Positions 1 to 15,581 of a DNA stretch of 64,000 nucleotides are shown piece after piece. The position numbers and the translations under genes were made by a program. The number at the start of each line of letters is the position of its first letter. Position 1 is the first letter of the stretch. A model generated the notes under the pieces. The model ran no database searches, was not told where the DNA came from, and saw nothing but the letters and a program-made list of their open reading frames with translations. The DNA comes from Escherichia phage UB: the sequence record MH383160. The stretch is one strand, 5' to 3'.

Positions 1-179
1 ATATATTCTGTGCAAAACTTATCTTGATATTGAGTCCCCATAAAGTACAGCAACCATAGCTCATTAACTTTAGCTCGCATTTGGTTCCATGTAAGGCTGG
101 GGTCACCGTAGACTATCCTTGTGATGGGGGTTAGTTTACGAATTATAGTTTCAAATTCATCATCAGTTAAGTGTTTCAT
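1..179 (-). CDS. Family-B small protein paralog, 5' part only (gene runs past window start)
   Basis: ATG at 179 overlaps the stop of the upstream gene (ATGA); N-terminus MKHLTDDEFETII resembles MKHLSNSEKNKII of 176..394. Confidence 0.45.
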   Translation of the reverse strand, partial: MKHLTDDEFETIIRKLTPITRIVYGDPSLTWNQMRAKVNELWLLYFMGTQYQDKFCTEY

Positions 180-394
180 TTACATTTGTCCCTTATTAGA
201 TCAGTGAGGGCAACTATGTGTGCAACAACATACTCTTCCTGAAAGTTCGTCCCCAGTACAGCCATCATGCGTATATCGGTGGTGTTTATCCTGTGTTCCC
301 TTACACATAAACCTTCTGTGTGAGGAAGTGTAAAATATTTGTTTATTGCAGCAACGATAATTTTATTCTTCTCGGAGTTACTTAAATGTTTCAT
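176..394 (-). CDS. Family-B small protein (72 aa)
   Basis: ORF; C-terminal motif LGTNFQE..V...I..L...I shared with neighbours; overlapping stop/start. Confidence 0.55.
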   Translation of the reverse strand: MKHLSNSEKNKIIVAAINKYFTLPHTEGLCVREHRINTTDIRMMAVLGTNFQEEYVVAHIVALTDLIRDKCK

Positions 395-603
395 AGTTTA
401 CTCCTGATATAATTCTGAAGTGCAATTAAGTATTCCCCTACATAATACACCTGAAAGTCTGTATCAAGGAATGCACCCATAAGTAAATCTTTTTCTAATA
501 CCCTTGATAAGTTAAGGTCTGCATTTGAAAGGTATATAAGTAAGATTTCACCCTGTGCGGAATTGAAACGTTTCTTATATTCTTCTGATGTTAAAAAAAT
601 CAT
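391..603 (-). CDS. Family-B small protein (70 aa)
   Basis: ORF; C-terminal ..GAFLDTDFQVYY...L..YIRSKL; ATGA overlap with neighbours. Confidence 0.55.
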   Translation of the reverse strand: MIFLTSEEYKKRFNSAQGEILLIYLSNADLNLSRVLEKDLLMGAFLDTDFQVYYVGEYLIALQNYIRSKL

Positions 604-815
604 AATTTGCTCCTGATATATTTCTCAAGAGATGACAAATACTTTTCCTCATAATACTTCTGATAGTCTGTTCCTAAGAATGCACCCAATAGTATATCAT
701 TTTCCAATACCTCGGCTAAGTTTAAATCAGAAGTCTCTTCGTATATTATGAGGATTTCAAGTTGTCTGGCAGCGATGCGTTCAGTATATTGATATGAGTT
801 TTCTATAATAATCAT
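600..815 (-). CDS. Family-B small protein (71 aa)
   Basis: ORF; close paralog of 391..603 (LLGAFLGTDYQKYY...YIRSKL). Confidence 0.55.
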   Translation of the reverse strand: MIIIENSYQYTERIAARQLEILIIYEETSDLNLAEVLENDILLGAFLGTDYQKYYEEKYLSSLEKYIRSKL

Positions 816-1021
816 AGTTTACTCTTAATATCTTCTATTAAAAATCGAATCCATTCTTCAACATAATCTTCCTGATGGTTTGTGTTCAGTACAGCCAACA
901 TGCGGATCTCTGCTCTTGCAACTTCAATTTCAGTTTTAGGAAGGTCTTTGCTGATATCCACCATTAAGTCCATGTATTTCAAGATAAGACCGTATGATTG
1001 GGTTCGTGTTATAGTTTTCAT
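812..1021 (-). CDS. Family-B small protein (69 aa)
   Basis: ORF; C-terminal LAVLNTNHQEDYV..WIRFLIEDIKSKL. Confidence 0.55.
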   Translation of the reverse strand: MKTITRTQSYGLILKYMDLMVDISKDLPKTEIEVARAEIRMLAVLNTNHQEDYVEEWIRFLIEDIKSKL

Positions 1022-1218
1022 TGTTTCCTCGTGGACAATATTTTATTTTTCAATGTATCCATATATTGAATCACCCATCTTTCCTGATAGTTAGTTCCCA
1101 AAGTAATCAAAAGGTATAACTCCATTCGTTCTACGTGTGTGTCTGTATTATAAATCTTTGTGAAGTTTTTACGTAACAGTGATTGATATTCTTCTTTATT
1201 TAAAATACGCATTTTCAT
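1018..1218 (-). CDS. Family-B small protein (about 64-66 aa; start 1218 or 1212)
   Basis: ORF; LITLGTNYQERWV motif. Confidence 0.5.
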   Translation of the reverse strand: MKMRILNKEEYQSLLRKNFTKIYNTDTHVERMELYLLITLGTNYQERWVIQYMDTLKNKILSTRKQ

Positions 1219-1412
1219 AGTTTACTCGTTATATCTTCAATTAAATACCAAATCCAATCGTTGACATACCTTTCCTGAAAGTTAGTTCCAATGAATAGTG
1301 CCATAATTAATTCACGCTTATAGGCAATACCACGGTCATGGGACTTATACATTATCATAGCCATGTTATTGATAAGTCTTTCGTGGTGCTGTTCTTTAGT
1401 TAAAATACGCAT
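1215..1412 (-). CDS. Family-B small protein (65 aa)
   Basis: ORF; LFIGTNFQERYVNDWIWYLIEDITSKL, paralog of 812..1021. Confidence 0.55.
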   Translation of the reverse strand: MRILTKEQHHERLINNMAMIMYKSHDRGIAYKRELIMALFIGTNFQERYVNDWIWYLIEDITSKL

Positions 1413-1661
1413 AGGGACTCCATTAAAAATAATATCAATCCTATAATATACGATTCGTATAAAAAATCAATAACATTTTATTCGTAATACCCCTTTATCG
1501 AAGTCGCTAAGGTTACCCGCCCTTTAGCCCCCTACGCATTTTGCCATAGTCCAATCCCTTTTATTTCAAAAAAGTCAAGGGATTACCTATGCATTTTTTT
1601 AACGCATAATTTTAAAAACGCCTTGACTTTTTTCTGAATCAGTACTAGATCCCTTTACGCA

Positions 1662-1871
1662 TTAATCCTTCGTTACGCTAACGATTATCTGTGTATCCCC
1701 GTAGTCCTGCCATACTTCCACGCCATCGGTCGCCCTGGTTAGTCGTGCTGTCATCTGCTTAATGGTCTTAGGCTTTAGTGGAACCTGTTGCAGTACTGTA
1801 CGCATAGCATCATTGACGTTATCATGTACGCCTGCAATAGTACCTAGAACGCTGTATACTGTATAGAACAT
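1662..1871 (-). CDS. hypothetical protein (69 aa)
   Basis: ORF with AGGAG SD upstream; GGCCGCT..AGCGGCC hairpin between it and the upstream gene. Confidence 0.5.
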   Translation of the reverse strand: MFYTVYSVLGTIAGVHDNVNDAMRTVLQQVPLKPKTIKQMTARLTRATDGVEVWQDYGDTQIIVSVTKD

Positions 1872-1939
1872 ATGTATGTACTCCTGATATAGTTAAGGCC
1901 GCTAGAGAGCGGCCTATGATGTTTGGTGATGTGTATTGC

Positions 1940-2341
1940 TTACAGCCCTAAGATAGTACGTGCTTCGTTACGTTCCGTACACAGCTGCATGATGTGAGCA
2001 AGTAAGTCCTTGCTAATGTATCCGGTGTTCATAGCTTCACGAATAGATACATCATAAGCACCGAACCCCGTGCGAACGATACGCACATCATTCAGGTTAG
2101 TATTATAGATACCGCCGAGATCAACGGCTTCGAATACTACATCAACAGAATATTCATTGTTGCCATCGTGGAAGTTTTCCAGTGCAATAGTATTGGATAC
2201 CGCCCAACGTTTGCAGTTTCCAATGATGCGGCACTGTTCCGGTTGGATAGTGCCATTACTTACAGCGTACTCCAGTGCATCTTTACCAAAAGTCCGAGCC
2301 AGTACTAAAACGTCAGCGAAGGAAGTGATTGAGAAGGTCAT
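1940..2341 (-). CDS. hypothetical protein (133 aa)
   Basis: Start moved to the ATG at 2341, which has an AAGGAG SD; the track start at 2404 lies inside the promoter/5'-UTR hairpin. Confidence 0.55.
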   Translation of the reverse strand: MTFSITSFADVLVLARTFGKDALEYAVSNGTIQPEQCRIIGNCKRWAVSNTIALENFHDGNNEYSVDVVFEAVDLGGIYNTNLNDVRIVRTGFGAYDVSIREAMNTGYISKDLLAHIMQLCTERNEARTILGL

Positions 2342-2430
2342 GATAAAACTCCTTAATTTAGGAGGGAGAACCATTTCCCCCTCTCTATGTAAAACATTAT
2401 ACATGAATCTAAGTACTATGCAAGTACTTT

Positions 2431-2763
2431 TTACATTTTGATACCTGGATTCAGGTAGCGGTGAGATCCATATTCTGGATCGGTTTCGGTCCAGTACTGT
2501 AAATCAATAGTGCCTTTAGCGTTAATCTTGTCTACCAGCTTATTCATCTTAGCGTATACTACATCGGCATCGATGCGTTTAAAGCCAGTAGCTTTAGTGA
2601 AGTAGTAGTGATTTGCTTCACTATCATTGAGGATATACCGAGCACCGTTTGCAGTCTGTGCGATAATGATTGAGTATTCTACTTCACGATCCAGTCCGTC
2701 GATGAATACAGATGAAACATTGGTACGGATGAAAGCTTTAACGATAGCGATTGAAGTACTCAT
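2431..2763 (-). CDS. hypothetical protein (110 aa)
   Basis: ORF; TTGACA-N16-TATAAT promoter upstream when read on the minus strand. Confidence 0.55.
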   Translation of the reverse strand: MSTSIAIVKAFIRTNVSSVFIDGLDREVEYSIIIAQTANGARYILNDSEANHYYFTKATGFKRIDADVVYAKMNKLVDKINAKGTIDLQYWTETDPEYGSHRYLNPGIKM

Positions 2764-2914
2764 TTTGAATCTCCTAACTTTGTGGGCCGTCGCACCATTG
2801 CCGCCCTACGAGATACATTATCGCAGTACTGATATACTTTGTCAATACTTTTTTATTAATAGTTTTAGTTCCACCAGCAGATAGTTACTCACCGTTATTA
2901 ACTATATATTTTGG

Positions 2915-2997
2915 ATACACCTATGCACCCTGTGGGCTAGTTTTTGTCTATGCGTATATAATAGCAAAGGGACTGACCGGAGTCAATCCTTTTTTTA
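2915..2997 (-). repeat. About 85-bp intergenic repeat, copy 1
   Basis: ATACAC..GCACCCTGTGGGC..TATATAATAGCAAAGGGACTGACCGGAGTCAATCCC plus T run; near-identical copies at 5168..5255, 8439..8521, 12461..12546. Confidence 0.6.
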
Positions 2998-3007
2998 TTC
3001 TTTTTTG

Positions 3008-3208
3008 TTAGATGATTCTCCAATCATCAACGATCATGGTAAGATACCGAACCAGTGATTCGAGTGATTCGTGTTCTCGATAGTCTGCCGCTCCACCAGC
3101 GGTACAAGTACAGCCGATTACGCCGTTTTGTAGTTCCTGGATCTTTACGTCGATCTGGTTGGCTTTAGCTTCTTTCAGTACTTCAACCAGGGCGATAGCG
3201 ATAGACAT
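3008..3208 (-). CDS. hypothetical protein (66 aa)
   Basis: ORF with SD, promoter plus hairpin upstream, hairpin terminator downstream. Confidence 0.55.
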   Translation of the reverse strand: MSIAIALVEVLKEAKANQIDVKIQELQNGVIGCTCTAGGAADYREHESLESLVRYLTMIVDDWRII

Positions 3209-3229
3209 AATGTTTTACTCCAAACTATT

Positions 3230-3292
3230 GGCGGGAGAACTATTCCCCCGCTCTATGTAAAACATTATACATTACTGGTTAGTACTGTCAAA
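3230..3292 (-). promoter_or_regulatory. Early promoter plus 5'-UTR stem-loop cassette (PeSL-like)
   Basis: On the minus strand: -35 TTGACA, 16-17 nt spacer, -10 TATAAT, then hairpin GCGGGGGAAtagTTCTCCCGC and SD of 3008..3208. Confidence 0.6.
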
Positions 3293-3298
3293 TAGTTT

Positions 3299-3556
3299 TT
3301 ATGAAATATCTTCGATGTAGTCGGCCCATTTCATTTTTTCAGTACTGTCAATGGCTACCGGATTATTTGGATCAAACCATTCACCATCCCCGCAATACAT
3401 ACCCACGGCAACGGTTTTATAGCCATCCTGGGCAGTACTCCACGACATAGCACGATAGATATGGCCTTTAACTGGTTGCAGTACTGGTAACGTTTTATGG
3501 TCTTCTACGTAGGCCATAGCTTGAGGATTTACCCGATATTGTGTGAATTGTTCCAT
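3299..3556 (-). CDS. hypothetical protein (85 aa)
   Basis: ORF; TTGACA/TAATGT-like promoter and GGGGAAA SD upstream. Confidence 0.5.
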   Translation of the reverse strand: MEQFTQYRVNPQAMAYVEDHKTLPVLQPVKGHIYRAMSWSTAQDGYKTVAVGMYCGDGEWFDPNNPVAIDSTEKMKWADYIEDIS

Positions 3557-3632
3557 TATGTTTCCCCTTGTTGTTAGTAAAGTTATTACATCAGTACTAT
3601 CAAGCTATGTCAATAGTACTGAAATAAAACTT

Positions 3633-3857
3633 TTAGATTAGATTATTGATGCCGTTGATGGTAGACTCGCTTTCTTCTTTCTCCCATTGGCGGTAGTACT
3701 TCCATGCTTCATGATATGTGGCGATTAGTTCATCTTTTTGATCCTGAGTACATGCCAGTACTGAATCACTGTAAGCGGTGTTATAGATAGAATCAAATGA
3801 TTTCTTATCTGCCGCCAGGTTTACTACTGCCCGGATCAGGTCATCGTGATTAGCCAT
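3633..3857 (-). CDS. hypothetical protein (74 aa)
   Basis: Start moved to MANHDDL (AGGAG SD); the track start lies in the 5'-UTR hairpin. Confidence 0.5.
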   Translation of the reverse strand: MANHDDLIRAVVNLAADKKSFDSIYNTAYSDSVLACTQDQKDELIATYHEAWKYYRQWEKEESESTINGINNLI

Positions 3858-3925
3858 CGTATTACTCCTTATTAGTGGGGGAGGATATCTCCCCCTATGC
3901 AAAACATTATACTTTGTTTTAGTTA

Positions 3926-4189
3926 TTATGCAAGTACTTTTTTCATATAAACATTAAATTCTACACCGCCGTAACCTTCTACGATGATATGTTTTGCGTT
4001 ATCACGTTTGCACATAGTGAAACCGTTGTTGATATGTTCTGCATTTTCCAGGGATACATCACCGATTGCAGCACATACGGCACTAATAACAGTATTCCGC
4101 AAAGTACTGGTATCATTAGCGGTCATAGTAGTTTGCAGTACTACGTTGTCGTATACGTGTGCATTGATAGTGATTTCGATAGTGTTCAT
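3926..4189 (-). CDS. hypothetical protein (87 aa)
   Basis: ORF; promoter plus hairpin cassette and SD upstream. Confidence 0.55.
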   Translation of the reverse strand: MNTIEITINAHVYDNVVLQTTMTANDTSTLRNTVISAVCAAIGDVSLENAEHINNGFTMCKRDNAKHIIVEGYGGVEFNVYMKKVLA

Positions 4190-4275
4190 GGTGTATCTCC
4201 TGGACTAGCGGGAGAACTATTCCCCCGCTCTATGTAAAACATTATACGTTAATCTAACTACAATGCAAGTACTTT

Positions 4276-4467
4276 TTAAATTTTATTTCCGATATAGTCC
4301 GGCCTGTTCTTTTCGGTCATACGCTTAAGCATTTTTTGCATATGGCTTATTGCTTGTAGTGTATCCTCTTCCAGGGATGAATCGAGATAATCAGGATCAT
4401 TCTTTACCTTGCAATGATTATGATAGCGTAGTACTGCCAGTACTTTTTTAACTTCTTCAACTGTCAT
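4276..4467 (-). CDS. hypothetical protein (63 aa)
   Basis: ORF; start overlaps the stop of 4464..4736, so translationally coupled. Confidence 0.5.
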   Translation of the reverse strand: MTVEEVKKVLAVLRYHNHCKVKNDPDYLDSSLEEDTLQAISHMQKMLKRMTEKNRPDYIGNKI

Positions 4468-4736
4468 AATAAGTACTCCACTTCGTTAGCTTTCAGGTTA
4501 GTATCAATCATCAGTGGTTTTTTGTAGTCCACAAAACGATTAGTTTTCTCGATGGCGAATCCCATATAATCCAGCTTACTTACCGTGCATTCATTCTTAA
4601 AAACTTCTTTCGCTGCATTGATGGCTGATTCAATTGATAACCGACCATCTAAGTTAATGTTTCCAAATGATCCACCAGCAGAAGTAGGATTACCGTTCAT
4701 ATCTTTAATGATCATAGTAGCGGAGTAGCTAGACAT
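4464..4736 (-). CDS. hypothetical protein (90 aa)
   Basis: ORF; promoter plus hairpin cassette upstream. Confidence 0.55.
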   Translation of the reverse strand: MSSYSATMIIKDMNGNPTSAGGSFGNINLDGRLSIESAINAAKEVFKNECTVSKLDYMGFAIEKTNRFVDYKKPLMIDTNLKANEVEYLL

Positions 4737-4758
4737 AATTTTGTTTCCTTTTATTGGT

Positions 4759-4817
4759 GGGGAGAACTATTCTCCCCTTGATGTAAACTATTATACAGTA
4801 CTGATATACTTTGTCAA
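4759..4817 (-). promoter_or_regulatory. Early promoter plus 5'-UTR stem-loop cassette (PeSL-like)
   Basis: Minus strand: GTATTGACAAAG, spacer, TATAAT, AGTTTACATCAA, hairpin GGGGAGAAtagTTCTCCCC; same architecture repeats upstream of about 30 genes between 2.3 and 19.6 kb. Confidence 0.6.
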
Positions 4818-4820
4818 TAC

Positions 4821-5042
4821 TTAATTACGTTTAAAATGATATGTGCCTTTATCATCCTGTACGCCCCATACTGATTTACCATCAACACCAGTGAAACCGG
4901 ATTGTAATTCAATATGGAAACCATTATTATCAACTACAAAAACTTTTTTATTTTCATCCCGATAACATTGATATTCTGAATCAACATTAAAGGCCGCATC
5001 ATTCAGAAGATTGGAAGCGTAAATGCAAGTCATTGTAGTCAT
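4821..5042 (-). CDS. hypothetical protein (about 73 aa)
   Basis: Start moved downstream of the 5'-UTR hairpin (MTTMTCIY). Confidence 0.45.
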   Translation of the reverse strand: MTTMTCIYASNLLNDAAFNVDSEYQCYRDENKKVFVVDNNGFHIELQSGFTGVDGKSVWGVQDDKGTYHFKRN

Positions 5043-5167
5043 GATTTTATTCCTTATTGCCAGGGAGAACCATTTCCCCCTCTCGATATAAAACATTATA
5101 CTTGATTCTAAGTACAATGCAAGTACTTTTTAAAAATAGTTTTCAGTACTGAATACTTATATAATAG

Positions 5168-5255
5168 ATACACTTATGCACCCTATGGGTCAGTGAGTTA
5201 TCTCTCAATGGATATATAATATCAAAGGGACTGACCGGAGTCAATCCCTTTTTTA
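5168..5255 (-). repeat. About 85-bp intergenic repeat, copy 2
   Basis: Direct comparison with 2915..2997. Confidence 0.6.
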
Positions 5256-5262
5256 ATCTTTT

Positions 5263-5847
5263 TTATCGTGTTATAGTTACGGCTTTTACATCACGCTTTT
5301 TATAGTACTGATTCCAGATATTGCGGGTTAAACCGTAATCAAGTACTTTAATAAGTCCATTACGATCCTGGCCGATATTCTGTTTTCTGATATCTCTTAT
5401 CGTTAGTGTTGATAATGTATCATCAACGTGTTGTAGTGCATCAGCAAAGCGGTGCTGGCGTTCGATTGCATTACGTTTAATATTGTACTTTAATTCATTG
5501 CACGCGTTTACGTGCTTCACACTGCCTTTGCTTGCAGTACTCAACCGATCCATAACGATAAACATATTATCAGGATCGCATAAATGCATATGCACTTTAG
5601 CAAAATACTGTTTCAACTGAGGGCGGTCATAGTCTAAAAAATTCCATACCTTACATTCAGTTTCATTTTGTTCTACACCCGCATCACAATTAGCGACCTT
5701 AATCACTAACCGATCATTTAAAGCGAATACAATACGGGAAGAACCCGCACCGATGATCTCCAGACCAGCTAACCGACAAGCTGAAAGGATCTCTTTGTTG
5801 GTTTCCATTTCTGACAGGGTACGGATGAATTTAGTATAATTACGCAT
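5263..5847 (-). CDS. putative protein-kinase-like protein (194 aa)
   Basis: IGAGSSRIVF...VIKV resembles a glycine-rich loop plus catalytic Lys; DIRKQNIGQDRNG and VLDYG resemble catalytic and DFG-like motifs; AGGAGAA SD at corrected start. Confidence 0.5.
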   Translation of the reverse strand: MRNYTKFIRTLSEMETNKEILSACRLAGLEIIGAGSSRIVFALNDRLVIKVANCDAGVEQNETECKVWNFLDYDRPQLKQYFAKVHMHLCDPDNMFIVMDRLSTASKGSVKHVNACNELKYNIKRNAIERQHRFADALQHVDDTLSTLTIRDIRKQNIGQDRNGLIKVLDYGLTRNIWNQYYKKRDVKAVTITR

Positions 5848-5878
5848 TGCATGTTCTCCTTGAGTTAATGAAACTATC

Positions 5879-6121
5879 TTACAGTACTTTACTATCAATG
5901 GCAACTACTTTTTTCACACTAACCGCGTGAATCACTTCCTTAGTGTTTTTAGTACTGAATACTTTCGCCGTGCCTTGTTCTACTGCAATACGATAACGAC
6001 CGTTAACATCAACCATATTAATAAAGTCCGGTGTACTAAACCGAGTAGTTTTACATTTCAGTACTGTTAACAGTTCCACCAGTGATGTAGTTTCTTTGAT
6101 ACGTTTTTCTAAAGTAATCAT
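5879..6121 (-). CDS. hypothetical protein (80 aa), paralog of 6179..6397 at DNA level upstream
   Basis: Start moved to MITLEKRIKE; 5' region nearly identical to that of the next gene. Confidence 0.5.
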   Translation of the reverse strand: MITLEKRIKETTSLVELLTVLKCKTTRFSTPDFINMVDVNGRYRIAVEQGTAKVFSTKNTKEVIHAVSVKKVVAIDSKVL

Positions 6122-6178
6122 TTTGTTTTCCCCGTGTTGGTATGTACATATAGTACTAAAACATTTGAGTACTGTCAA

Positions 6179-6397
6179 TTAGATAATATTATATTTCTTA
6201 AAATAAAATGCGTCCTGTGTTGGTTGATACTCAATGCCATTGCCGTTATTGACTTCAACTAATAAACCTTTGTCAATAAGTTTTTTAATAGTACGATACC
6301 CTTGTTGAAAATTGGTAAAATGTGAATCATTACGAAAGGTATAACCGTGCTTAACTGCTTCATCAATAGTTTTCTTTTCGATTTTAGATAATTTCAT
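6179..6397 (-). CDS. hypothetical protein (72 aa)
   Basis: Start moved to MKLSKIEKK; TTGACA promoter and GGGAGAAAC SD upstream. Confidence 0.5.
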   Translation of the reverse strand: MKLSKIEKKTIDEAVKHGYTFRNDSHFTNFQQGYRTIKKLIDKGLLVEVNNGNGIEYQPTQDAFYFKKYNII

Positions 6398-6450
6398 TTT
6401 GTTTCTCCCGTGTTGGTATAGATATATAATACTAAAACATTTGAGTACTG

Positions 6451-6705
6451 TCAACGTGATATTAGTTTTATTTTCTTATTATACTGTTGATGCTCATAAA
6501 GGTTTATCTTTCCAGTATTCTCAATTACTATTCTGTTGTTGGTGTCCACGTCGATTACACGTAGTTTCCCGTTGCTTAACTTCCTAGGCAATAGGTTACC
6601 ATTAATAAACTCATTAGCAAGCTGTACGGCCTTTGTGATGATTCTCTGAGGTGCTTTATAGTGTACCCGTAAGATGTTATCTTTATATAGTTGAACCTTA
6701 ATCAT
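6451..6705 (-). CDS. hypothetical protein (84 aa)
   Basis: ORF; SD-like AGGACAAAC upstream. Confidence 0.5.
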   Translation of the reverse strand: MIKVQLYKDNILRVHYKAPQRIITKAVQLANEFINGNLLPRKLSNGKLRVIDVDTNNRIVIENTGKINLYEHQQYNKKIKLISR

Positions 6706-6716
6706 TTTGTTTGTCC

Positions 6717-6744
6717 TATAAAAAAGGCGGGAACTGATCCCGCC
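6717..6744 (-). terminator. Rho-independent terminator
   Basis: Minus strand GGCGGGAtcagTTCCCGCC followed by a T run, just 3' of gene 6767..7171. Confidence 0.6.
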
Positions 6745-6766
6745 GTGTTGTTAGTACTGCAAGTTA

Positions 6767-7171
6767 TTAGATAACCTGGCGGCGTTTACTGTATACTGTT
6801 ACACGATTACCCTTACGATCATGTCGGATCTCTTTCTGGTTGCGAATCAGTTCACTTGGACGCTTAAGGTTTGCCAGGTGATCCGCGTGAGTCCATGCGG
6901 TGTGGTTTACCTGTACTTTGATATCAGAATCAGCGATAAACTCATCTTGTGCATCAAGTATTGACGCCAGTAAATCCGCTCGTTTTAGTTCTGCTGCTGT
7001 TAGTACTGGCTCCGGTGAATTCACAATATCAGAGATCTCTTTGAACTGTACGGCCCAGCGTTGACCTTTCGGTGCATCTTTGCCCATGTCTTTAAATGTT
7101 TCGCCTTCCTCGCGTGCAACAATACGGGCAGCTTCACGGGTAGCGTAAAATTTAGTAATCATGGTATACAT
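6767..7171 (-). CDS. hypothetical protein, paralog of 18477..18743
   Basis: Shares YFATRE.AR..AR..G.TFKDMG..RWAV and C-terminal HDRKGNRVTVYS with 18477..18743. Confidence 0.55.
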   Translation of the reverse strand: MYTMITKFYATREAARIVAREEGETFKDMGKDAPKGQRWAVQFKEISDIVNSPEPVLTAAELKRADLLASILDAQDEFIADSDIKVQVNHTAWTHADHLANLKRPSELIRNQKEIRHDRKGNRVTVYSKRRQVI

Positions 7172-7257
7172 CCTATTAGTTAAGTTAGTACTACAAGTTA
7201 GAGTCTATTATAAAGTACTATCTGGGCAATGTCAAATAGTACTTTAAATGGATTCTA

Positions 7258-7581
7258 TTACATGTCTTTCTTACGTTTTACATCGTGGTAGCGAACTGTT
7301 ATTTCTTTGTTGATCTCTTCCTCGATGCGGTGAATAACTTTTTCTTTCGGGTTGAAACCTATAACGGTTTCTTTAATGATCTCCAAGCCCGTGTATTCGC
7401 CTTGTGTACCGTAACCGTATGTAAAGGTTTCGTGTCCCAGGTCTTCCCAGCGGTCGCCAATTAACGCAGACACGTAGCAAGAGTGGTAAGTATTGCCGTG
7501 TGAATCAGTCCACCGATTAACATTAATGTCAAAGGAGGTTACAATTTTCAGTTCCACTTTCTGGGCAAGGATCATAGCCAT
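7258..7581 (-). CDS. hypothetical protein (107 aa)
   Basis: Start moved to MAMILAQ; the track start lies in the 5'-UTR hairpin. Confidence 0.5.
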   Translation of the reverse strand: MAMILAQKVELKIVTSFDINVNRWTDSHGNTYHSCYVSALIGDRWEDLGHETFTYGYGTQGEYTGLEIIKETVIGFNPKEKVIHRIEEEINKEITVRYHDVKRKKDM

Positions 7582-7669
7582 TTTTATTTCTCTCTCTTTG
7601 TTAGGAGGGGAACCGTTTCCCCTCACTTGATGTAAACTATTATACAGTACTAAGATACTTTGTCAATAC

Positions 7670-7852
7670 TTATTTTTTGGAAAGTTTACGCATTAATTCT
7701 ACGCTTTCTTGTGAACGTTTTGCTACCTGGCAAGCTGTATGGGTAGTAAACATTTTTGTATAGTCTGACGCTTTGCCACCGAACCGAGCGGCACGTTCAC
7801 GGGCACTTGGAACTAATACTATTTCTTTCTTGCAGATAGTGCACTTAGCCAT
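7670..7852 (-). CDS. hypothetical small basic protein (60 aa)
   Basis: ORF; promoter plus hairpin cassette upstream, near-identical to that of the neighbouring gene. Confidence 0.5.
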   Translation of the reverse strand: MAKCTICKKEIVLVPSARERAARFGGKASDYTKMFTTHTACQVAKRSQESVELMRKLSKK

Positions 7853-7939
7853 TTTTATTTCTCTCTTTTAGTTAGGAGGGGAACCATTCCCCTCGCTTGA
7901 TGTAAACTATTATACAGTACTAAGATACTTTGTCAATAC

Positions 7940-8215
7940 TTAATTATTGTAAATGTCGTGAATAGTGATAAAGTTTTTACGACCGTAAACCTGCAAATCA
8001 GTATCAATAAAGTGCTTATCTAGTACATCCTCGACGCTTAACGCGGTGTCGTGGATATCTTCGTAGAATTGAGGATCTACAATCTTGCTTAAGTCATCCG
8101 GCGTTAACTTATCATTTAACCATTGAACCGCCTGGATATCTGCTTCACGTTTCCAGTCTTCCAGGTTAGTAGTCAGTACTTGCTCGATTTCGTTAGCTGT
8201 CAGTAGAATCCGCAT
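7940..8215 (-). CDS. hypothetical acidic protein (91 aa)
   Basis: ORF; promoter cassette upstream. Confidence 0.5.
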   Translation of the reverse strand: MRILLTANEIEQVLTTNLEDWKREADIQAVQWLNDKLTPDDLSKIVDPQFYEDIHDTALSVEDVLDKHFIDTDLQVYGRKNFITIHDIYNN

Positions 8216-8438
8216 TTTTATGTTTCCTTATCAGTGGTTGATGTAAGTATTATACTCTTTTACTTTCTATTGTCAAACTATTTTATCAGGGGAGGTTTTC
8301 TTATGTCTTACTCCTGGACTACTTAACGGGGTTACTTGTTTCGTTCCCCGTCCTGATGTAAAACATTATACTTGATTCTAAGTACAATGCAAGTACTTTT
8401 TAAAAATAGTTTTCAGTACTAGCCACCAGCATATAATA

Positions 8439-8521
8439 GATACATTTATGCACCCGGTGGGCTGAATTGTTTCTATGCGTATATAATAGCAAAGGGACTG
8501 ACCGGAGTCAATCCCTTTTTC
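8439..8521 (-). repeat. About 85-bp intergenic repeat, copy 3
   Basis: Direct comparison with 2915..2997. Confidence 0.6.
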
Positions 8522-8955
8522 AAATATTTTTAAACTTCTTTCGGGTTGCGATATGTGATAGCGTTCGGGTACATTTGTTTAATGTTATTCCATGCCTGGT
8601 TAACATTGTAACCACTTGAGCGAATCAGTTGGTTACTACCGACACCTTGAAACACTACTTCGAATAAGAATTCTTTCATGCTTTCACCTCGCGATCTGCT
8701 TTACCTTTACGCCAGGACATTACTAATTGTTCGCGTTGCCATAAGTCGAGTGATACAAAAAGTTTTGCGGTATCACTTTTAGGATACTCTCCAGTAGTAC
8801 CTAACCGATAAAACAGATCTTTCAGTACTGATAATTCTACTTGAATCATTTTATTACTCCTGATTGCGTTAATACTTCTACAATTGCATGAATGATCATA
8901 AGTACAGCTAAAACAATAATCATCGGATTCATTTGCATAAGCTGTACTCCTTCTA

Positions 8956-9168
8956 TTAATCTTTCAGCCAATGATCTTGAATGAATTTTTCACAGAATCC
9001 CTGTTTCATGGATTCTAACAGGCGTTCGCGGTGAGCGGCGGCATATTGCTCAGTACTATGCGTTACGCCAGGCTGATAACGTGATACCCCATCCGGTCCG
9101 ATGTATTGTACATCCCACGGTTTTTCGTTAGTATCAGACCATTTACGAACGATTAGTTGACCTTGCAT
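8956..9168 (-). CDS. hypothetical protein (70 aa)
   Basis: ORF; promoter plus hairpin cassette and AGAGGAAAG SD upstream. Confidence 0.55.
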   Translation of the reverse strand: MQGQLIVRKWSDTNEKPWDVQYIGPDGVSRYQPGVTHSTEQYAAAHRERLLESMKQGFCEKFIQDHWLKD

Positions 9169-9251
9169 TTTTCTTTCCTCTCAGTGGGGAGAATCATTTC
9201 TCCCCTTCATGTAAACTATTATACAGTACTGGGTTGCATTGTCAATAGTTT

Positions 9252-9575
9252 TTATTCACCTTGTTTGAATTTAGTTTTCTGCATTGATTCCATGATTGCA
9301 ACCAATACGCCGTGGATCTCGCTTAACGCGGAATCACTAAAAGCATTAATGAATAGTCGATCATTCTCGCGAATATTTTTAATGTACTTTTCAGCAGTAG
9401 TTGCGAATTCATTCAACGGTAGATCAAATGCTTTATCCCATGATGGATGGCGTAATTGTAACAGTACTGGATTATCACGATCACCAGGGGAAAACGTACC
9501 AGTGATGAAACATACGCCCGGAATACTTTCGAACTGGCAACGGACTTCCTTTGTGATAGTAGTATGAATGTACAT
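9252..9575 (-). CDS. hypothetical protein (107 aa)
   Basis: ORF; GAGGATAA SD upstream; co-transcribed with 9603..9791. Confidence 0.5.
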   Translation of the reverse strand: MYIHTTITKEVRCQFESIPGVCFITGTFSPGDRDNPVLLQLRHPSWDKAFDLPLNEFATTAEKYIKNIRENDRLFINAFSDSALSEIHGVLVAIMESMQKTKFKQGE

Positions 9576-9602
9576 TTATTGTTATCCTCTATTAAATTAA
9601 TA

Positions 9603-9791
9603 TTACAGTTTATGAATCAATTCTTTATCTAAGCGATAGCGTACATTATTAATAGTAACGGCATTGTTTTTAATGCTACGCTGTACAGGTCCACCAGCAA
9701 TAACAAATGTTGCTTTATTGCCCCGAACAATGATAGCACTTCCAGGATTACCGAAATCATCTTGTACTAAAATACTTGATAAGTTTTCCAT
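9603..9791 (-). CDS. hypothetical protein (62 aa)
   Basis: ORF; promoter plus hairpin cassette upstream. Confidence 0.5.
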   Translation of the reverse strand: MENLSSILVQDDFGNPGSAIIVRGNKATFVIAGGPVQRSIKNNAVTINNVRYRLDKELIHKL

Positions 9792-9870
9792 TTTTTATTT
9801 CCTCTTAGTAGGGGAAGATGTTTCCCCTTGATGCAAGTACTATAACAGTACTGAAAACTAAATGCAAGTA

Positions 9871-10227
9871 CTATGATAAAATCATGATAGGATATTCACT
9901 ATCGATCAGTACCTCGAATCCGAAACCTTCGTACCATTCTTTAAGATTAAAGGCGTTATCTTCTCCCGTATCGCATTCTAAAATGATACAATCTGAATCA
10001 TCGGCGGCATCAATAAAGGCATTCATTAATTCGTTACCTTCACCATTGCCCCGACTATCAGGATCAACATAAAGAGAATCAATAAACGCTACACGGTCAT
10101 AATCAAGATCCGGTGCAATGATTCCACGTTTAACAAACCAGTACTGCAATTGTGCTACTTTGCCCTGTACTTGATAGCCAGTGATCTCGCCATTGTCAGT
10201 AGTACGCGTGATATGTTGTATTCCCAT
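9871..10227 (-). CDS. putative GNAT-family N-acetyltransferase (118 aa)
   Basis: VDPDSRGNGEGNELMNA resembles the acetyl-CoA-binding motif A (Q/R-x-x-G-x-G/A) of GNAT enzymes; size fits a minimal GNAT fold. Confidence 0.45.
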   Translation of the reverse strand: MGIQHITRTTDNGEITGYQVQGKVAQLQYWFVKRGIIAPDLDYDRVAFIDSLYVDPDSRGNGEGNELMNAFIDAADDSDCIILECDTGEDNAFNLKEWYEGFGFEVLIDSEYPIMILS

Positions 10228-10290
10228 GATTTCAATCCTCAGTTAAGATATAAAATATTATAAACTATCTTTCAGTACTGTCAATACTTT

Positions 10291-10548
10291 TTATCTCATA
10301 GATCTATGCCAACAATTACGCGGATCTCTTTTAAAAGTACTATCATGATCCTCCTGGCAAGTAATACAATACATGCACCCTATAACGGCCTGGCGTCGAT
10401 TCTCAGGAATTTTATCGCCGCAGTCGAGGCAATGTACCAGTGATTCTCTTTGTGCGTTAATTTGCTTTCTAGCGTGGTTAACGGCGGCCTGAATCACTGC
10501 GTTAATCTCGTCTTGTTCGGCCCCATCTTTCGCGAATCCTACAGCCAT
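10291..10548 (-). CDS. DksA/TraR-family C4 zinc-finger protein (85 aa)
   Basis: C-x2-C-x17-C-x2-C (CLDCGDKIPENRRQAVIGCMYCITC) with RRQA, typical of TraR/DksA C4-type fingers. Confidence 0.6.
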   Translation of the reverse strand: MAVGFAKDGAEQDEINAVIQAAVNHARKQINAQRESLVHCLDCGDKIPENRRQAVIGCMYCITCQEDHDSTFKRDPRNCWHRSMR

Positions 10549-10879
10549 TATTTTAACCTCATTATAAAAATACTATAGTACTGTAATGCGACAATAATAT
10601 TACTTGTTCTTACTTTTTCCAATCCACATGATACCACATATTCATCCCCATATGTGCGGAACGATACACCATGAAAATTTTTATACACTTGCACTACTAA
10701 TCATAACCTTTCGTCTAACCAACTGCATAGAATTATACTACTTTACGCAAATTGATCAAGTATTGATCAGATCATTTTTTGATCAATATTATACAGTTAC
10801 ATTTGTGCACCCTATGGGTTAGTGACGTTCTCGTCTTGATGTAAGTATTATGCCAGTACTGGATGATATTGTCAATAGT

Positions 10880-11077
10880 TTATTTTAATTTTTTTCTGTC
10901 ATTGATTAATGCTTTCAGTACTATACTAATGATTTGCAATGATTCATCAATGACTATAAAATTATTTTCTTTCATTAGATGATAGTTACCATTGATTGTA
11001 TATTCTAAGGAGTACTGTTTACGTTTAATTTTTGATAATGTTTCTATTTGTTTTTGTACTGATTTCATGCTAATCAT
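10880..11077 (-). CDS. hypothetical protein (65 aa)
   Basis: ORF; very AT-rich; start context weak. Confidence 0.4.
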   Translation of the reverse strand: MISMKSVQKQIETLSKIKRKQYSLEYTINGNYHLMKENNFIVIDESLQIISIVLKALINDRKKLK

Positions 11078-11688
11078 TGTTAAACGTCCTGTAACGCATT
11101 CTAACGAGATAAACGGTTGAGTACTGGCATTGTATAGGGTAATGAATTAAAGCCCACCAGCGTTAACCAGTGGGCTATAATCTTACATCTTGCGGATAAT
11201 CTTAACAGTATCTTTCACCGATTTACCGTCTTGCTGACATTGCTCGATCATTGCGTATTGTTCTGCGGTCAGATCCTCGCCAGTTTTTGCCAGTACTGCG
11301 TCGATGAATGAATCCAGTGCGATCATTTTGTTTCTCTCTTAGGTTAAGTTAACTACTGTTGATAAAACTTATTATACAGTACTATCAAACTATGTCAATA
11401 ACTTTAATAGTACTGGTAATATATTTTAGCGGTAGTCGTCGTATGCTTTATTCACCTGGCGAATGTAACTTTCAAAGGCTTCGTCTACCGTTTCATACTC
11501 CCGAACATAATCACCATAGGAAACTACATACATACCTTTTTGATCTTCAAACGTCATGATGATAGAATCCAGACCAACGATTTCAGTTTTTGCGATGATA
11601 GCCATTTTTTAATTCCTTAGTAGTGTAGTTGATAAAACTTATTATGCCAGTACTATCAAACTATGTCAATAGCACTGTGATAATATTT

Positions 11689-11901
11689 TTAGTTAATAAT
11701 AGTCAGTGTAAAATTGTAATCCCCTGCCTGGTATAGTACTTTATCGCCGAACGTGCCGACACGTTTCATATTGCAATAGATACCCATAACACTTTTTACA
11801 TCTTTGATATTCCGAACGCCTGTAATATCTTTATTAAAATAATCGTGGTCAGAAAATAAAACTTGTTTTGCATTTTTCAGTACAGTGCGGATATTAGCCA
11901 T
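11689..11901 (-). CDS. hypothetical protein (70 aa)
   Basis: ORF; promoter plus hairpin cassette upstream. Confidence 0.5.
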   Translation of the reverse strand: MANIRTVLKNAKQVLFSDHDYFNKDITGVRNIKDVKSVMGIYCNMKRVGTFGDKVLYQAGDYNFTLTIIN

Positions 11902-11994
11902 TTTGTTTTCTCTCTGTTAGTGGGGAGAACTATTCTCCCCTTGATGTAAACTATTATACAGTACTATAATCTATTGTCAAACTATTTTTTTATA

Positions 11995-12336
11995 TTATTC
12001 GAAATCTTCTGGACCGGACTGATAATCATCTTCACCGTATGCACTTTCTAACCGCTCACCAGTGTAATCATCAGTTAAGCTATCATCCTCATAGTTCACG
12101 TCTACGCCTGTGATGTAAAACTGGCTATCGTCTGGATCATTGAAATTAATTTTTTGGATGTTTACAATAACTGTATTGATGCCCAGGACACCGCCATCAG
12201 CCGTTACAAAGTACTGATAGTTTTCACAACCGCCTGAATTGAAACCGTAATTAATTTCGGCCCGACCATCATTTAAACGCAGTGCCTGGGCAATGATTTC
12301 ATTTTCAAAGTTAGATTGAGCAATTGAGATAGTCAT
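11995..12336 (-). CDS. hypothetical acidic protein (113 aa)
   Basis: ORF; promoter plus hairpin cassette and AAGGAAAC SD upstream. Confidence 0.55.
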   Translation of the reverse strand: MTISIAQSNFENEIIAQALRLNDGRAEINYGFNSGGCENYQYFVTADGGVLGINTVIVNIQKINFNDPDDSQFYITGVDVNYEDDSLTDDYTGERLESAYGEDDYQSGPEDFE

Positions 12337-12460
12337 GATTCGTTTCCTTATTACCAGGGGAAACCGTTTCCCCTTGCGATGTAAAACATTATACGCTTAT
12401 TGAGATAGTTTGCAAGTACTTTTTAAAAATAGTTTTCAGTACTCAAACATTATACAATAG

Positions 12461-12546
12461 ATACACTCCTGCACCCTGTGGGCTAGTGAGCTATCTCTCA
12501 ATGAATATATAATAGCAAACTGGCTGACCGAAGTCAACCACTTTTT
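12461..12546 (-). repeat. About 85-bp intergenic repeat, copy 4 (hairpin variant GGCTGACCGAAGTCAACC)
   Basis: Direct comparison; the hairpin resembles the type found in the 44-59 kb region. Confidence 0.55.
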
Positions 12547-12769
12547 CATTTATTTTTAGCTTTTAGAATCGCCGCCTTTCGCGTCATGCCTTGCTTGATG
12601 TACTCATTTACTTTCGCTTTTTTAGCGTTTACCTTGTCTGCTTTCGTTTTAGGAGTACTGTAAATTATACCGTTAGGATTCATTTAAATCACCATAAAGA
12701 ATAGATAGGTTACTAACAATGCCGCGATCATTGCACCGACCAGGGCCGAACTGTAATAAGCTAATGATT

Positions 12770-12922
12770 TCATTTTTTAGCCTGAAAATAATGTTTAATT
12801 TGAGCGGCGGTCAGTGCACAATTACGCAGGAAGTTTTCTGTATAACTGCGTCGAGTACTGAAAGAAAATTGACCTTTACCGTTCCCGATAGTAACATCAA
12901 ACCGAGCATTATATTGTTTCAT
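12770..12922 (-). CDS. hypothetical small protein (50 aa)
   Basis: Start moved to MKQYNARF (GGAGA SD); the track's first Met is encoded by the hairpin loop. Confidence 0.45.
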   Translation of the reverse strand: MKQYNARFDVTIGNGKGQFSFSTRRSYTENFLRNCALTAAQIKHYFQAKK

Positions 12923-13219
12923 TTTGTTTCTCCTGTTCTTGGGGAGAATCATTTCTCCCCTTCATGTAAACTATTATACAGTACTAAAAACTAATTGCAA
13001 GTATTATTTTTTAGATTTACGTAAACTTTCTACCATCTCAGGAGTAAGCCCCAGCGGGTAGGAAACCACTTCATCCACAAAACGCAAAGGGAATACCCCA
13101 TCTAAAGTTGAACGTGCTTTCTTATTAGTACTCTTTTTTGATGCTTTCATTTCATATTCCTTAATTAGTGGGGAGAACTATTTCTCCACTTCATGTAAAC
13201 TATTATACAGTACTAAAAA

Positions 13220-13429: not shown

Positions 13430-13434
13430 ATTAA

Positions 13435-13707: not shown

Positions 13708-13758
13708 GGTATAATCCCCAATATAAGCGGCCTAAAACGACCGCTAACGATGTTTTGA

Positions 13759-14828: not shown

Positions 14829-14849
14829 ATTGATTCAGTACTTTAATTG

Positions 14850-15564: not shown

Positions 15565-15581
15565 AGTGATTCAGTACTATA

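What the first reader, a model, noticed from the sequence alone, without database searches (positions are those of the whole stretch)
1..1412. Second small-protein paralog family: seven translationally coupled genes
Seven consecutive 65-72-aa genes share a C-terminal L-G-T-N-[FY]-Q-E..V....I..L...I-[RK]-SKL module and overlap stop to start (ATGA), i.e. one operon of diverged duplicates. The array runs off the window start, so it is probably longer.
Basis: seen in the sequence. Interest (0 to 1): 0.5.

Follow-up and report, generated by a model that had tools for sequence, protein, structure and literature searches.

The report
Tandem small-protein gene array in jumbo phage
The seven small genes are the first part of a tightly packed operon of about 27 diverged copies of one roughly 70-residue four-helix protein, found beside the terminal repeat of Asteriusvirus jumbo coliphages. 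The gene family is real and evolves quickly, has not been described in the papers searched, and has no known function; a set of early host-manipulating proteins is the best guess.

Summary
On the minus strand, six complete genes (65-72 aa) and one gene cut by the window start are homologous, and every junction is an ATGA stop/start overlap.

The window comes from an Asteriusvirus jumbo coliphage (99.3% identical to phage BAU.Micro_ELP-22). In relatives the array continues past the window start to 27 contiguous copies, with 28-31 family members per genome.

The family is phrog_4148 (unknown function). It has no Pfam, PDB or fold relatives. It is confined to RaK2-like jumbo phages: 81 clusters among 1.84 billion representative proteins.

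AlphaFold models of two paralogs (pLDDT 97.6 and 95.5) give the same four-helix fold. The conserved residues are the hydrophobic core and two motifs I read as helix caps (L-T-x-x-E and G-T-N-Y-Q-E). Surface residues and charge vary widely (pI 4.4-9.9). The "[RK]-SKL" tail overlaps the next gene's ribosome-binding site.

The operon starts about 100 nt inside the inner boundary of the 21-kb direct terminal repeat. It lies behind a terminator-like hairpin and a conserved sigma-70-type promoter. The proteins are absent from the phAPEC6 virion proteome.

dN/dS is 0.40-0.44, against 0.14-0.19 for flanking genes, and copies are gained, lost, swapped or replaced between phages.

The most likely role, which is inferred and not shown, is an early-expressed set of small binding proteins for host takeover or counter-defence.

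The parts
1215..1412 (-). Copy 1 (65 aa), the first gene of the operon. It is the most variable between phages.
   Evidence: ORF. phrog_4148 at E 7e-20. Only 58% aa identity to its positional counterpart in vB_Ec-M-J, WPEC3 and Ecwhy_1.
1018..1218 (-). Copy 2 (66 aa, pI 9.7). ATGA overlap with copy 1.
   Evidence: AF2 model pLDDT 95.5 with the family fold. dN is about equal to dS against Ecwhy_1 and vB_Ec-M-J.
812..1021 (-). Copy 3 (69 aa). ATGA overlap with copy 2.
   Evidence: dN 0.056 against dS 0.051 versus three other species.
600..815 (-). Copy 4 (71 aa, pI 4.4). ATGA overlap with copy 3.
   Evidence: 53% identical to copy 5. Its position is swapped with copy 5 in SP27, vB_Ec-M-J, WPEC3 and Ecwhy_1.
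391..603 (-). Copy 5 (70 aa). ATGA overlap with copy 4.
   Evidence: AF2 model pLDDT 97.6 with helices at residues 6-15, 17-26, 30-44 and 51-69.
176..394 (-). Copy 6 (72 aa). ATGA overlap with copy 5.
1..179 (-). Copy 7: the N-terminal 59 codons, cut by the window start. The full gene is 85 aa in ELP-22.
   Evidence: Translation. Identical to L001 11922..12179. HMM E 8e-20.
1418..1421 (-). Shine-Dalgarno GGAG, 5 nt upstream of the copy 1 start codon.
   Evidence: Sequence. Invariant in six phages.
1443..1470 (-). Sigma-70-type promoter-like site, TTGATT-16 nt-TATTAT (9 of 12). It is the candidate operon promoter.
   Evidence: The -10 hexamer and five of six -35 positions (TTGA[TC]T) are invariant in six phages, within a 96%-conserved intergenic region.
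1505..1525 (.). Approximate inner boundary of the roughly 21-kb direct terminal repeat (about position 1514), inside a G+C-rich conserved box. The array lies just outside the repeat.
   Evidence: The vB_Ec-M-J repeat_region 1..21525 was mapped through L002 onto the window. DTR sizes of 20.7-21.5 kb are reported in PMC11895373 and PMC13070987.
1568..1633 (-). Stable hairpin flanked by an A-run and a U-run, after the last DTR gene (1662..1871). It is terminator-like and would separate the array from upstream transcription.
   Evidence: RNA fold -27 kcal/mol, z = -3.76, 0 of 200 shuffles as stable.
389..410 (-). Junction module (reverse complement ATATCAGGAGTAAACTATGAAA): the upstream C-terminal codons, the SD and the ATGA overlap. 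It recurs at 598-619, 810-831 and 1213-1234.
   Evidence: Direct-repeat family D4, 82-91% identity at a spacing of about 210 nt. Codon reading.

Best explanation
SHOWN.
- The seven genes are the promoter-proximal part of one long, gap-free, minus-strand operon of about 27 tandem paralogs (28-31 family members per genome).
- The phage is an Asteriusvirus (RaK2-like) jumbo coliphage.
- Each gene encodes a soluble protein of about 70 residues. Two AlphaFold models give the same fold: an N-terminal residue bridged to the L-G-T loop, followed by four helices.
- Conservation is limited to the hydrophobic core and two motifs that I read as helix-capping boxes (L-T-x-x-E and G-T-N-Y-Q-E). Exposed positions and net charge differ greatly between copies.
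- Neighbouring copies are more alike than distant ones, which fits growth by tandem duplication. The array is still being remodelled: copies are gained, lost, swapped in order or replaced between phages.
- Most copies are nevertheless kept as positional orthologues across the genus.
- The operon begins about 100 nt inside the inner edge of the left direct terminal repeat, after a terminator-like hairpin and a conserved sigma-70-type promoter. It points the same way as the repeat's genes, which carry consensus host-type promoters.
- The proteins were not detected in the phAPEC6 virion proteome.

INFERRED.
- The operon is transcribed by host RNA polymerase early in infection.
- The copies are translated in series through stop/start overlaps.
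- They act as a panel of small intracellular binding proteins built on one stable scaffold. Each binds a different host or competitor target, for host takeover or counter-defence.
- The family would then be a phage counterpart of the multigene families that sit near the genome ends of large eukaryotic DNA viruses.
For: Anatomy and homology.

Array length and copy number: 28-31 members in six Asteriusvirus genomes. Related arrays: 12 copies in RaK2, and 16 and 11 in two metagenomic relatives.

Fold: AF2 pLDDT 97.6 and 95.5 with the same secondary-structure plan for two copies that are 27% identical. Independent BFVD models of 121Q and PBECO4 paralogs superpose at TM 0.76-0.91.

Conserved core and variable surface: pI 4.4-9.9 and net charge -6 to +8.

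Tandem duplication signal: neighbours 31% identical against 24.7% for all pairs, p=1e-4.

Faster evolution than flanking genes: pooled dN/dS 0.40-0.44 against 0.14-0.19 for eight neighbouring genes. Two copies have dN about equal to dS, and copy 1 is only 58% identical between species. By contrast, the upstream intergenic region is 96% conserved.

Turnover: order swaps, replacements and extra copies.

Context:
- DTR boundary, hairpin, promoter.
- 13 perfect TTGACA-16/17-TATAAT promoters lie in the adjacent DTR, all on the same strand as the array.
- In the related phage PA5oct, DTR genes are highly transcribed early and the phage relies on host RNA polymerase (PMC7318152).
- In phage CBB, the regions of short genes with RpoD-like promoters are interpreted as early host-takeover genes (PMC5259590).

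Non-structural: phAPEC6 gp467c-gp489c are absent from the 62-protein virion table, which does include a 4.7-kDa protein.
Against: - No expression data exist for any Asteriusvirus, so 'early' rests on position, a 9-of-12 promoter match and analogy.
- The array lies outside the repeat, and its promoter is much weaker than the perfect-consensus promoters inside the repeat.
- Nothing links the fold or sequence to any known anti-defence, host-shutoff or regulatory protein.
- dN/dS stays below 1 overall, and about 90% of copies have an orthologue of at least 70% identity in conserved order. That looks more like long-term maintenance of about 30 distinct functions than a fast arms race.
- Equal, coupled expression of about 27 paralogs would also suit subunits of one assembly.
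Confidence: 0.4

Rival explanations
1. The paralogs are subunits of one hetero-oligomeric intracellular assembly, such as a scaffold, coat or filament. Translational coupling would serve to make them in fixed proportions.
For: 24 of 26 junctions in the ELP-22 array overlap, which is typical of operons for complex subunits. Copy order and most individual copies are conserved across the genus. All copies share one compact fold.
Against: Charge ranges from -6 to +8 and exposed positions are highly variable, with no conserved surface patch. Copies are swapped, lost, added or replaced between phages without the array collapsing. RaK2 has only about 12 copies, and they are dispersed. Monomer models are very confident without a partner. 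None was detected in virions.
Confidence: 0.1
2. They are small nucleic-acid-binding regulators, such as transcription factors, RNA chaperones or translation factors, that retune host or phage gene expression.
For: 17 of 29 copies have pI of 8.6 or higher. Small helical early phage proteins often act on the transcription machinery (general knowledge). A roughly 35-copy zinc-ribbon expansion in phage G has been proposed to be transcription factors or DNA-binding proteins (PMC7824862).
Confidence: 0.15
3. The array has little or no protein function. It would be a neutral product of replication or recombination slippage beside the terminal repeat, or the ORFs are over-called.
For: It lies next to a recombination-prone repeat boundary. 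The junction module is the best-conserved DNA segment and could promote unequal crossing-over. Selection is relaxed compared with flanking genes.
Against: All 28-31 copies keep intact frames in six independently sequenced phages. dN/dS is about 0.4, which is below 1. Core residues are nearly invariant in copies that are about 25% identical. The family persists in distant RaK2-like phages and metagenomic relatives with different G+C content. AF2 confidence is very high. No alternative-frame ORFs or RNA families explain the region.
Confidence: 0.05

Closest known systems
PHROG family phrog_4148 (unknown function)
   Same: All six complete window copies match over their full length at E 7e-14 to 3e-22. 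The fused versions in EC.P1 and RaK2 also match.
   Different: The PHROG entry has no function, no structure, and no mention of the tandem array. No paper in the searched library cites it.
Lineage-specific expansions in jumbo phages, such as the roughly 35-copy zinc-ribbon family of Bacillus phage G (Iyer et al. 2021, PMC7824862)
   Same: Dozens of copies of one small domain in a single jumbo-phage genome, with function only guessed.
   Different: The fold differs (all-helical, no metal ligands) and so does the phage lineage. This family is one contiguous, overlapping operon at the repeat boundary, and it is not mentioned in that survey.
Early small-gene regions in or next to long terminal repeats of large phages: PA5oct DTR early genes (PMC7318152), the CBB early region (PMC5259590), and, from my own knowledge, the Bacillus phage SPO1 host-takeover module and the phage T5 pre-early region
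   Same: Many short genes of unknown function at a genome end, on one strand, read from host-type promoters. Where tested, they are expressed first and used to take over the host.
   Different: Those regions are mostly collections of unrelated genes, each with its own promoter. Here about 27 genes are paralogs of one another, share one weak promoter, overlap stop-to-start, and lie just outside the repeat.
Multigene families of large eukaryotic DNA viruses (African swine fever virus MGF families; poxvirus 'genomic accordions'). From my own knowledge, not tested here.
   Same: Tandem paralog arrays near genome termini. Copy number and content vary between isolates. Evolution is faster than in core genes.
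   Different: There is no sequence or structural relationship. The hosts and protein sizes differ. A role in host range or immune evasion is established for those families and is only hypothesised here.
The 'array of closely related genes' noted in phAPEC6 (PMC7247149)
   Same: Same phage genus. It is cited as evidence that jumbo genomes grew by tandem duplication.
   Different: That remark appears in the tail-reconstruction section, next to the tail 'whiskers', and the paper does not say which genes it means; I take it to be virion genes. The small-protein array gp467c-gp489c is not discussed and is absent from the virion proteome.

Membership tests
phrog_4148 | Significant full-length match to the family profile | tested here: met
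   E 7e-14 to 3e-22, covering profile positions 1-72 of 74, for all six complete copies.
Tandem multigene family (lineage-specific expansion) | Copies are mutually homologous | tested here: met
   Leave-window-out HMM at E 7e-11 to 4e-17, with no other window ORF scoring. BLASTP with composition correction.
Tandem multigene family (lineage-specific expansion) | Copies are adjacent, neighbours are more alike than distant copies, and copy number varies between genomes | tested here: met
   27 contiguous copies. Neighbour identity 0.31 against 0.247, p=1e-4. 28-31 copies in six genomes, with swaps and replacements.
Tandem multigene family (lineage-specific expansion) | Restricted taxonomic range | tested here: met
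   81 clusters at E<=1e-3 among 1.84 billion representatives.
Translationally coupled operon | Stop codon of each gene overlaps or abuts the next start codon | tested here: met
   6 of 6 junctions in the window are ATGA. 24 of 26 junctions overlap in ELP-22.
Translationally coupled operon | Ribosome-binding site embedded in the upstream coding sequence | tested here: met
   AGGAG, AAGAG, GAGG or GAG lies 5-6 nt before the start at five window junctions, and AGGG 10 nt before the sixth. AGG Arg codons are enriched in the last six codons, Fisher p=0.027. The motif is weaker in the distal part of the array.
Translationally coupled operon | Downstream translation depends on upstream translation; the genes share one transcript | not testable with these tools
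   Needs reporter fusions, ribosome profiling or RNA-seq. The only evidence here is the lack of predicted internal terminators.
Immediate-early / host-takeover gene set of large terminally redundant phages | Located in or at the terminal repeat and read from host sigma-70 promoters | tested here: inconclusive
   The array starts about 100 nt outside the repeat. Its promoter is a conserved 9-of-12 match, whereas the repeat itself has 13 perfect promoters.
Immediate-early / host-takeover gene set of large terminally redundant phages | Expressed in the first minutes of infection and acting on host functions | not testable with these tools
   No transcriptome or functional study of an Asteriusvirus was found.
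Known defence-related protein families (PADLOC) and any Pfam family, including Hha/YmoA-like small helical regulators (recalled from memory because of the N-terminal 'LTxxEY..RL') | Significant profile or fold match | tested here: not met
Virion (structural or injected) proteins | Detected in purified particles | tested here: not met
   phAPEC6 gp467c-gp489c are absent from the 62-protein ESI-MS/MS table in PMC7247149. This is negative evidence from a single study.

The most novel reading that the evidence does not exclude
The roughly 30 paralogs co-assemble, in proportions fixed by translational coupling, into a mixed-subunit intracellular structure that forms early in infection. One example would be a protective or organising coat for the incoming 350-kb genome in a jumbo phage that is reported to lack a phage nucleus (Sharanji paper). 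This would be a new kind of phage-built cellular structure. The evidence neither supports nor excludes it.
Probability: 0.05. Interest if true: 0.85.

Novelty: new member of a known kind. Interest (0 to 1): 0.45.

Why it matters
- The roughly 6-kb array of about 27 copies of one small protein accounts for about 4-5% of the genes of a 350-kb phage. Even so, it is annotated only as 'hypothetical protein' and is not discussed in any paper found.
- With 27 contiguous copies and 28-31 members per genome, it is comparable to the roughly 35-copy phage G zinc-ribbon family, the only other phage expansion of this size I found in the literature searched.
- It shows how jumbo genomes grow by tandem duplication, and it does so at a defined place: the inner edge of the terminal repeat.
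- If the copies are diversified binders of host or defence proteins, the array offers about 30 ready-made candidates per phage, and hundreds across the genus. They share one small, confidently modelled scaffold and could be screened for new inhibitors of E. coli functions.
- That would also bear on host range in phages now being promoted for therapy against pathogenic E. coli.
- The overlap between the C-terminal codons and the next gene's ribosome-binding site is a caution for motif-based reading of such arrays.

Tried and rejected
- **Pfam, PADLOC.** Scans of all 29 copies gave only scattered sub-threshold single hits.
- **UniRef label.** The 'DUF3885' label on one orthologue was not reproduced by Pfam.
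- **PDB by sequence profile.** The only hits are repeats in designed alpha-Rep proteins at E>=0.07, which I take as chance.
- **Guilt by fusion.** The C-terminal domains fused to this module in EC.P1 (269 aa) and in RaK2 ORF362/ORF372 have no Pfam or informative PHROG match.
- **Relation to the other small-gene array** at 21493-25893: rejected (hhalign probability 0.3%; HMM silent).
- **RNA or DNA-repeat explanation.** No Rfam hit and no TRF tandem repeat. DNA-level repeats are only the coding motif and the junction module.
- **tRNAs.** None in the window.
- **Literature.** No mention of the family, and no Asteriusvirus transcriptome.
- **CMSTMSU locus.** Not used for dN/dS because the record is frameshift-ridden and flagged UNVERIFIED.
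- **Model coordinates.** They were not available to scripts. The capping-box and core/surface assignments therefore rest on DSSP strings and alignment patterns, not on measured solvent exposure.
Full report
**What is in the window.**
The genes lie on the minus strand. There are six complete ORFs: 1215..1412, 1018..1218, 812..1021, 600..815, 391..603 and 176..394, of 65-72 aa. A seventh begins at 179 and runs off the window start, with 59 codons visible. Every successive pair shares the four bases ATGA, so each stop overlaps the next start. No competing long ORFs, tRNAs, Rfam families or TRF tandem repeats explain the region.

**Are the copies homologous beyond chance?**
Yes.
- All six complete copies match one PHROG profile, phrog_4148, over its full length at E 7e-14 to 3e-22.
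- A profile built only from the 22 copies that lie outside the window in a relative recovers the six complete window copies at E 7e-11 to 4e-17. The truncated copy also scores, but its identical orthologue is in that profile. None of the other 946 window ORFs scores.
- Composition-corrected BLASTP links every copy into one connected set, although not every pair scores.
In a 29-copy alignment the nearly invariant positions are M1, T and Q of G-T-N-Y-Q-E, and a Leu in the last helix. Further conserved hydrophobic positions and an N-terminal L-T-x-x-E-Y are also present.

**One correction to the motif.**
The '[RK]-S-K-L-stop' tail is encoded by ATC AGG AGT AAA CTA TGA. That string contains the Shine-Dalgarno sequence AGGAG, the spacer, and the ATG of the next gene.
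- This 22-nt junction module is the best-conserved DNA in the array: 82-91% identity at four junctions.
- AGG arginine codons are enriched in the last six codons (7 of 15 against 19 of 98, p=0.027).
- The tail is found in only about a quarter of the family.
Its conservation is therefore at least partly a translation-initiation constraint and not a protein feature.

**Where the window comes from, and how long the array is.**
The first 3 kb are 99.3% identical to Escherichia phage BAU.Micro_ELP-22 and 89-99% identical to about 40 other Asteriusvirus jumbo phages (PBECO4, 121Q, phAPEC6, G17, Sharanji and others). In ELP-22 the chain of small overlapping genes continues beyond the window start, giving 27 contiguous family members over about 6 kb, plus two more a little further on. 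All are annotated 'hypothetical protein'.

A family HMM counts these members per genome:

| Phage | Members |
|---|---|
| ELP-22 | 29 |
| vB_Ec-M-J | 29 |
| phAPEC6 | 30 |
| Ecwhy_1 | 30 |
| WPEC3 | 31 |
| SP27 | 28 |

In ELP-22, 24 of 26 junctions overlap (13 by ATGA, the rest by 8-32 nt). The two gaps are 1 and 29 nt.

**Distribution.**
An exhaustive HMMER scan of 1.84 billion representative proteins found only 81 clusters at E<=1e-3, nearly all 52-96 aa long.
- RaK2 has about 12 copies in small clusters, not one array. Two of them are fused to a C-terminal domain of about 55 aa.
- Phage EC.P1 has one copy fused to a 200-aa domain.
- Two low-G+C metagenomic contigs from uncultivated relatives carry 16 and 11 copies in similar overlapping arrays.
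- No Pfam, PADLOC or PDB sequence relative exists.

**Structure.**
AlphaFold2 models of copy 5 (pLDDT 97.6) and of copy 2 (27% identical to it; pLDDT 95.5) show the same plan. An N-terminal residue forms a beta-bridge with the L-G-T loop, and four helices follow, the last about 20 residues long. Independent BFVD models of 121Q and PBECO4 paralogs superpose at TM 0.76-0.91.

From the alignment, the conserved positions form the i/i+3/i+4 hydrophobic stripes of the helices. The conserved polar residues sit where helices 1 and 4 begin (T-x-x-E and T-x-x-Q). I read these as N-capping boxes; this is an inference from the DSSP strings and the alignment. Other positions have entropies above 3 bits. 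pI spans 4.4-9.9 and net charge -6 to +8. The family is therefore a fixed scaffold with a free surface.

**Genomic setting.**
Asteriusvirus genomes have direct terminal repeats of about 21 kb (PMC11895373 and PMC13070987). The annotated repeat of vB_Ec-M-J (1..21525) ends at window position about 1514, roughly 100 nt upstream of the first array gene.

Reading along the minus strand, the order is:
1. The last repeat gene (1662..1871).
2. A stable hairpin flanked by A- and U-runs (1633..1568; -27 kcal/mol, z = -3.76).
3. A G+C-rich box containing the repeat boundary.
4. A sigma-70-like site, TTGATT-16-TATTAT (1470..1443).
5. GGAG.
6. The ATG at 1412.

This 250-nt spacer is 96% identical across six phages. 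The first array gene, by contrast, is only 58% identical in protein between species.

The repeat itself (window about 1.5-21 kb) carries 13 perfect TTGACA-16/17-TATAAT promoters. All are on the minus strand, which is the array's strand. The whole window has 15, none on the plus strand. That marks the repeat as host-RNA-polymerase territory.

In the related phage PA5oct, repeat genes are the highly transcribed early genes and the phage depends on host polymerase (PMC7318152). For phage CBB, similar regions of short genes were interpreted as early host-takeover genes (PMC5259590).

In phAPEC6 the array is gp467c-gp489c. None of these is among the 62 proteins detected in virions, although that list includes a 4.7-kDa protein.

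**Evolution.**
- Neighbouring copies are more alike than random pairs (31% against 24.7% identity, p=1e-4), as expected from stepwise tandem duplication.
- About 90% of ELP-22 copies have a counterpart of at least 70% identity in each other genome, mostly in the same order. Most duplications therefore predate the genus, and the individual copies are retained.
- There is also clear turnover. Copies 4 and 5 are in the opposite order in SP27, vB_Ec-M-J, WPEC3 and Ecwhy_1. Single copies are replaced by 47-54% relatives in one phage while being 98-100% identical in the others. WPEC3 and phAPEC6 have extra copies.
- Against three other species, pooled Nei-Gojobori dN/dS for the seven window genes is 0.40-0.44. 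The value for eight neighbouring repeat genes is 0.14-0.19. Copies 2 and 3 have dN about equal to dS.
This pattern shows purifying selection on the scaffold with relaxed or diversifying pressure on the rest. A formal site-model test was not run.

**Interpretation.**
Shown: a real, protein-coding, lineage-restricted multigene family, arranged as one overlapping operon at the inner edge of the terminal repeat, not detected in virions, and evolving faster than its neighbours.

Inferred: early transcription by host polymerase, serial coupled translation, and a role as a panel of small binding proteins aimed at different host or competitor targets (host takeover or counter-defence). I put this functional reading at about 0.4.

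Reasons for caution:
- There are no expression data.
- The promoter is much weaker than those inside the repeat.
- No similarity to any characterised inhibitor was found.
- The copies are well conserved across the genus.

Rivals are nucleic-acid-binding regulators (0.15; most copies are basic, but several are strongly acidic and no such fold is seen), a mixed-subunit assembly (0.1), and functionless duplicates (0.05; contradicted by intact frames, dN/dS below 1 and conservation in distant relatives).

**Comparison with known systems, and novelty.**
The phenomenon is known: lineage-specific tandem expansions of small genes in large viruses. One example is the roughly 35-copy zinc-ribbon family of phage G (PMC7824862). 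From my own knowledge, the terminal multigene families of African swine fever virus and of poxviruses are others.

This particular family has no described function, structure or literature. Its size, strict operon packing and position at the repeat boundary are distinctive. I rate it a new member of a known kind, of moderate interest (0.45). It is mainly a well-defined, experimentally tractable candidate set for phage-host interaction factors.

Noticed in passing
window 3264-20854, minus strand: 13 perfect-consensus sigma-70 promoters (TTGACA-16/17-TATAAT) lie in intergenic gaps of the terminal-repeat region, all on the coding strand. The whole 64-kb window has 15, and none on the plus strand. 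This is a strong signature of host-polymerase-driven immediate-early genes.
   Followed up: partly
window about 1514 and about 21200; ORF-poor stretch 20118-21492: The window appears to contain one collapsed copy of the roughly 21-kb direct terminal repeat. Its inner boundary maps to about 1514 (from vB_Ec-M-J). The physical left end maps to about 21.2 kb (from fEgEco12 coordinates), inside a 1.4-kb stretch with no ORF of 60 aa or more.
   Followed up: partly
window 21493-23240 and 24472-25893, minus strand: A different family of 16 small (60-77 aa) tandem genes with an N-terminal H-K-E-F-Y motif. It is unrelated to the family studied here (hhalign probability 0.3%).
   Followed up: partly
window 25978-40222, plus strand: About a dozen tandem paralogs of 250-450 aa. 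In relatives they are annotated as 'DNA condensation protein' or 'regulator of chromosome condensation'. Several phAPEC6 proteins carrying that annotation (gp003, gp005, gp007, gp009, gp549, gp551) are in its virion proteome; I assume, without aligning them, that they correspond to these window genes.
   Followed up: no
window 8491-8518, 5224-5251, 2970-2989, 12521-12540, minus strand: A repeated hairpin (AAAGGGATTGACTCCGGTCAGTCCCTTT) has a TTGACT -35-like hexamer in its stem and is followed by TATTAT. From memory, this resembles the promoter-early stem-loop cassettes of T4-type phages. A related CCCTTGACT...AGGGA element lies in the hairpin upstream of the array (1568-1633).
   Followed up: no
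L008 (RaK2) 20169-20534 and 23813-24160; phage EC.P1 338002-338808 (P0302): The 70-aa module also occurs fused to C-terminal domains: about 55 aa in RaK2 ORF362 and ORF372, and about 200 aa in EC.P1, where the extension is homologous to the free-standing RaK2 ORF380. None of these domains has a known function.
   Followed up: partly
L001 1-5000; L008 38000-50000; L009 11266-20198; L010 10243-20246: Downstream of the small-gene arrays, all relatives carry a second long run of overlapping genes of 150-200 aa that look like another paralog family.
   Followed up: no
Protein hits P0004-P0100: Many family members are labelled 'Escherichia coli' in NCBI but sit on contigs of about 345-360 kb. These are Asteriusvirus genomes inside bacterial assemblies, consistent with reports of lytic phage genomes in bacterial assemblies (PMC12768965).
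   Followed up: no
window 1940-2404, minus strand: The ORF list gives 154 aa from an upstream ATG. ELP-22, phAPEC6 and SP27 annotate a 133-aa product for this gene (phAPEC6 notes similarity to phage RB49), while Ecwhy_1 annotates the longer form. The start site is ambiguous.
   Followed up: no
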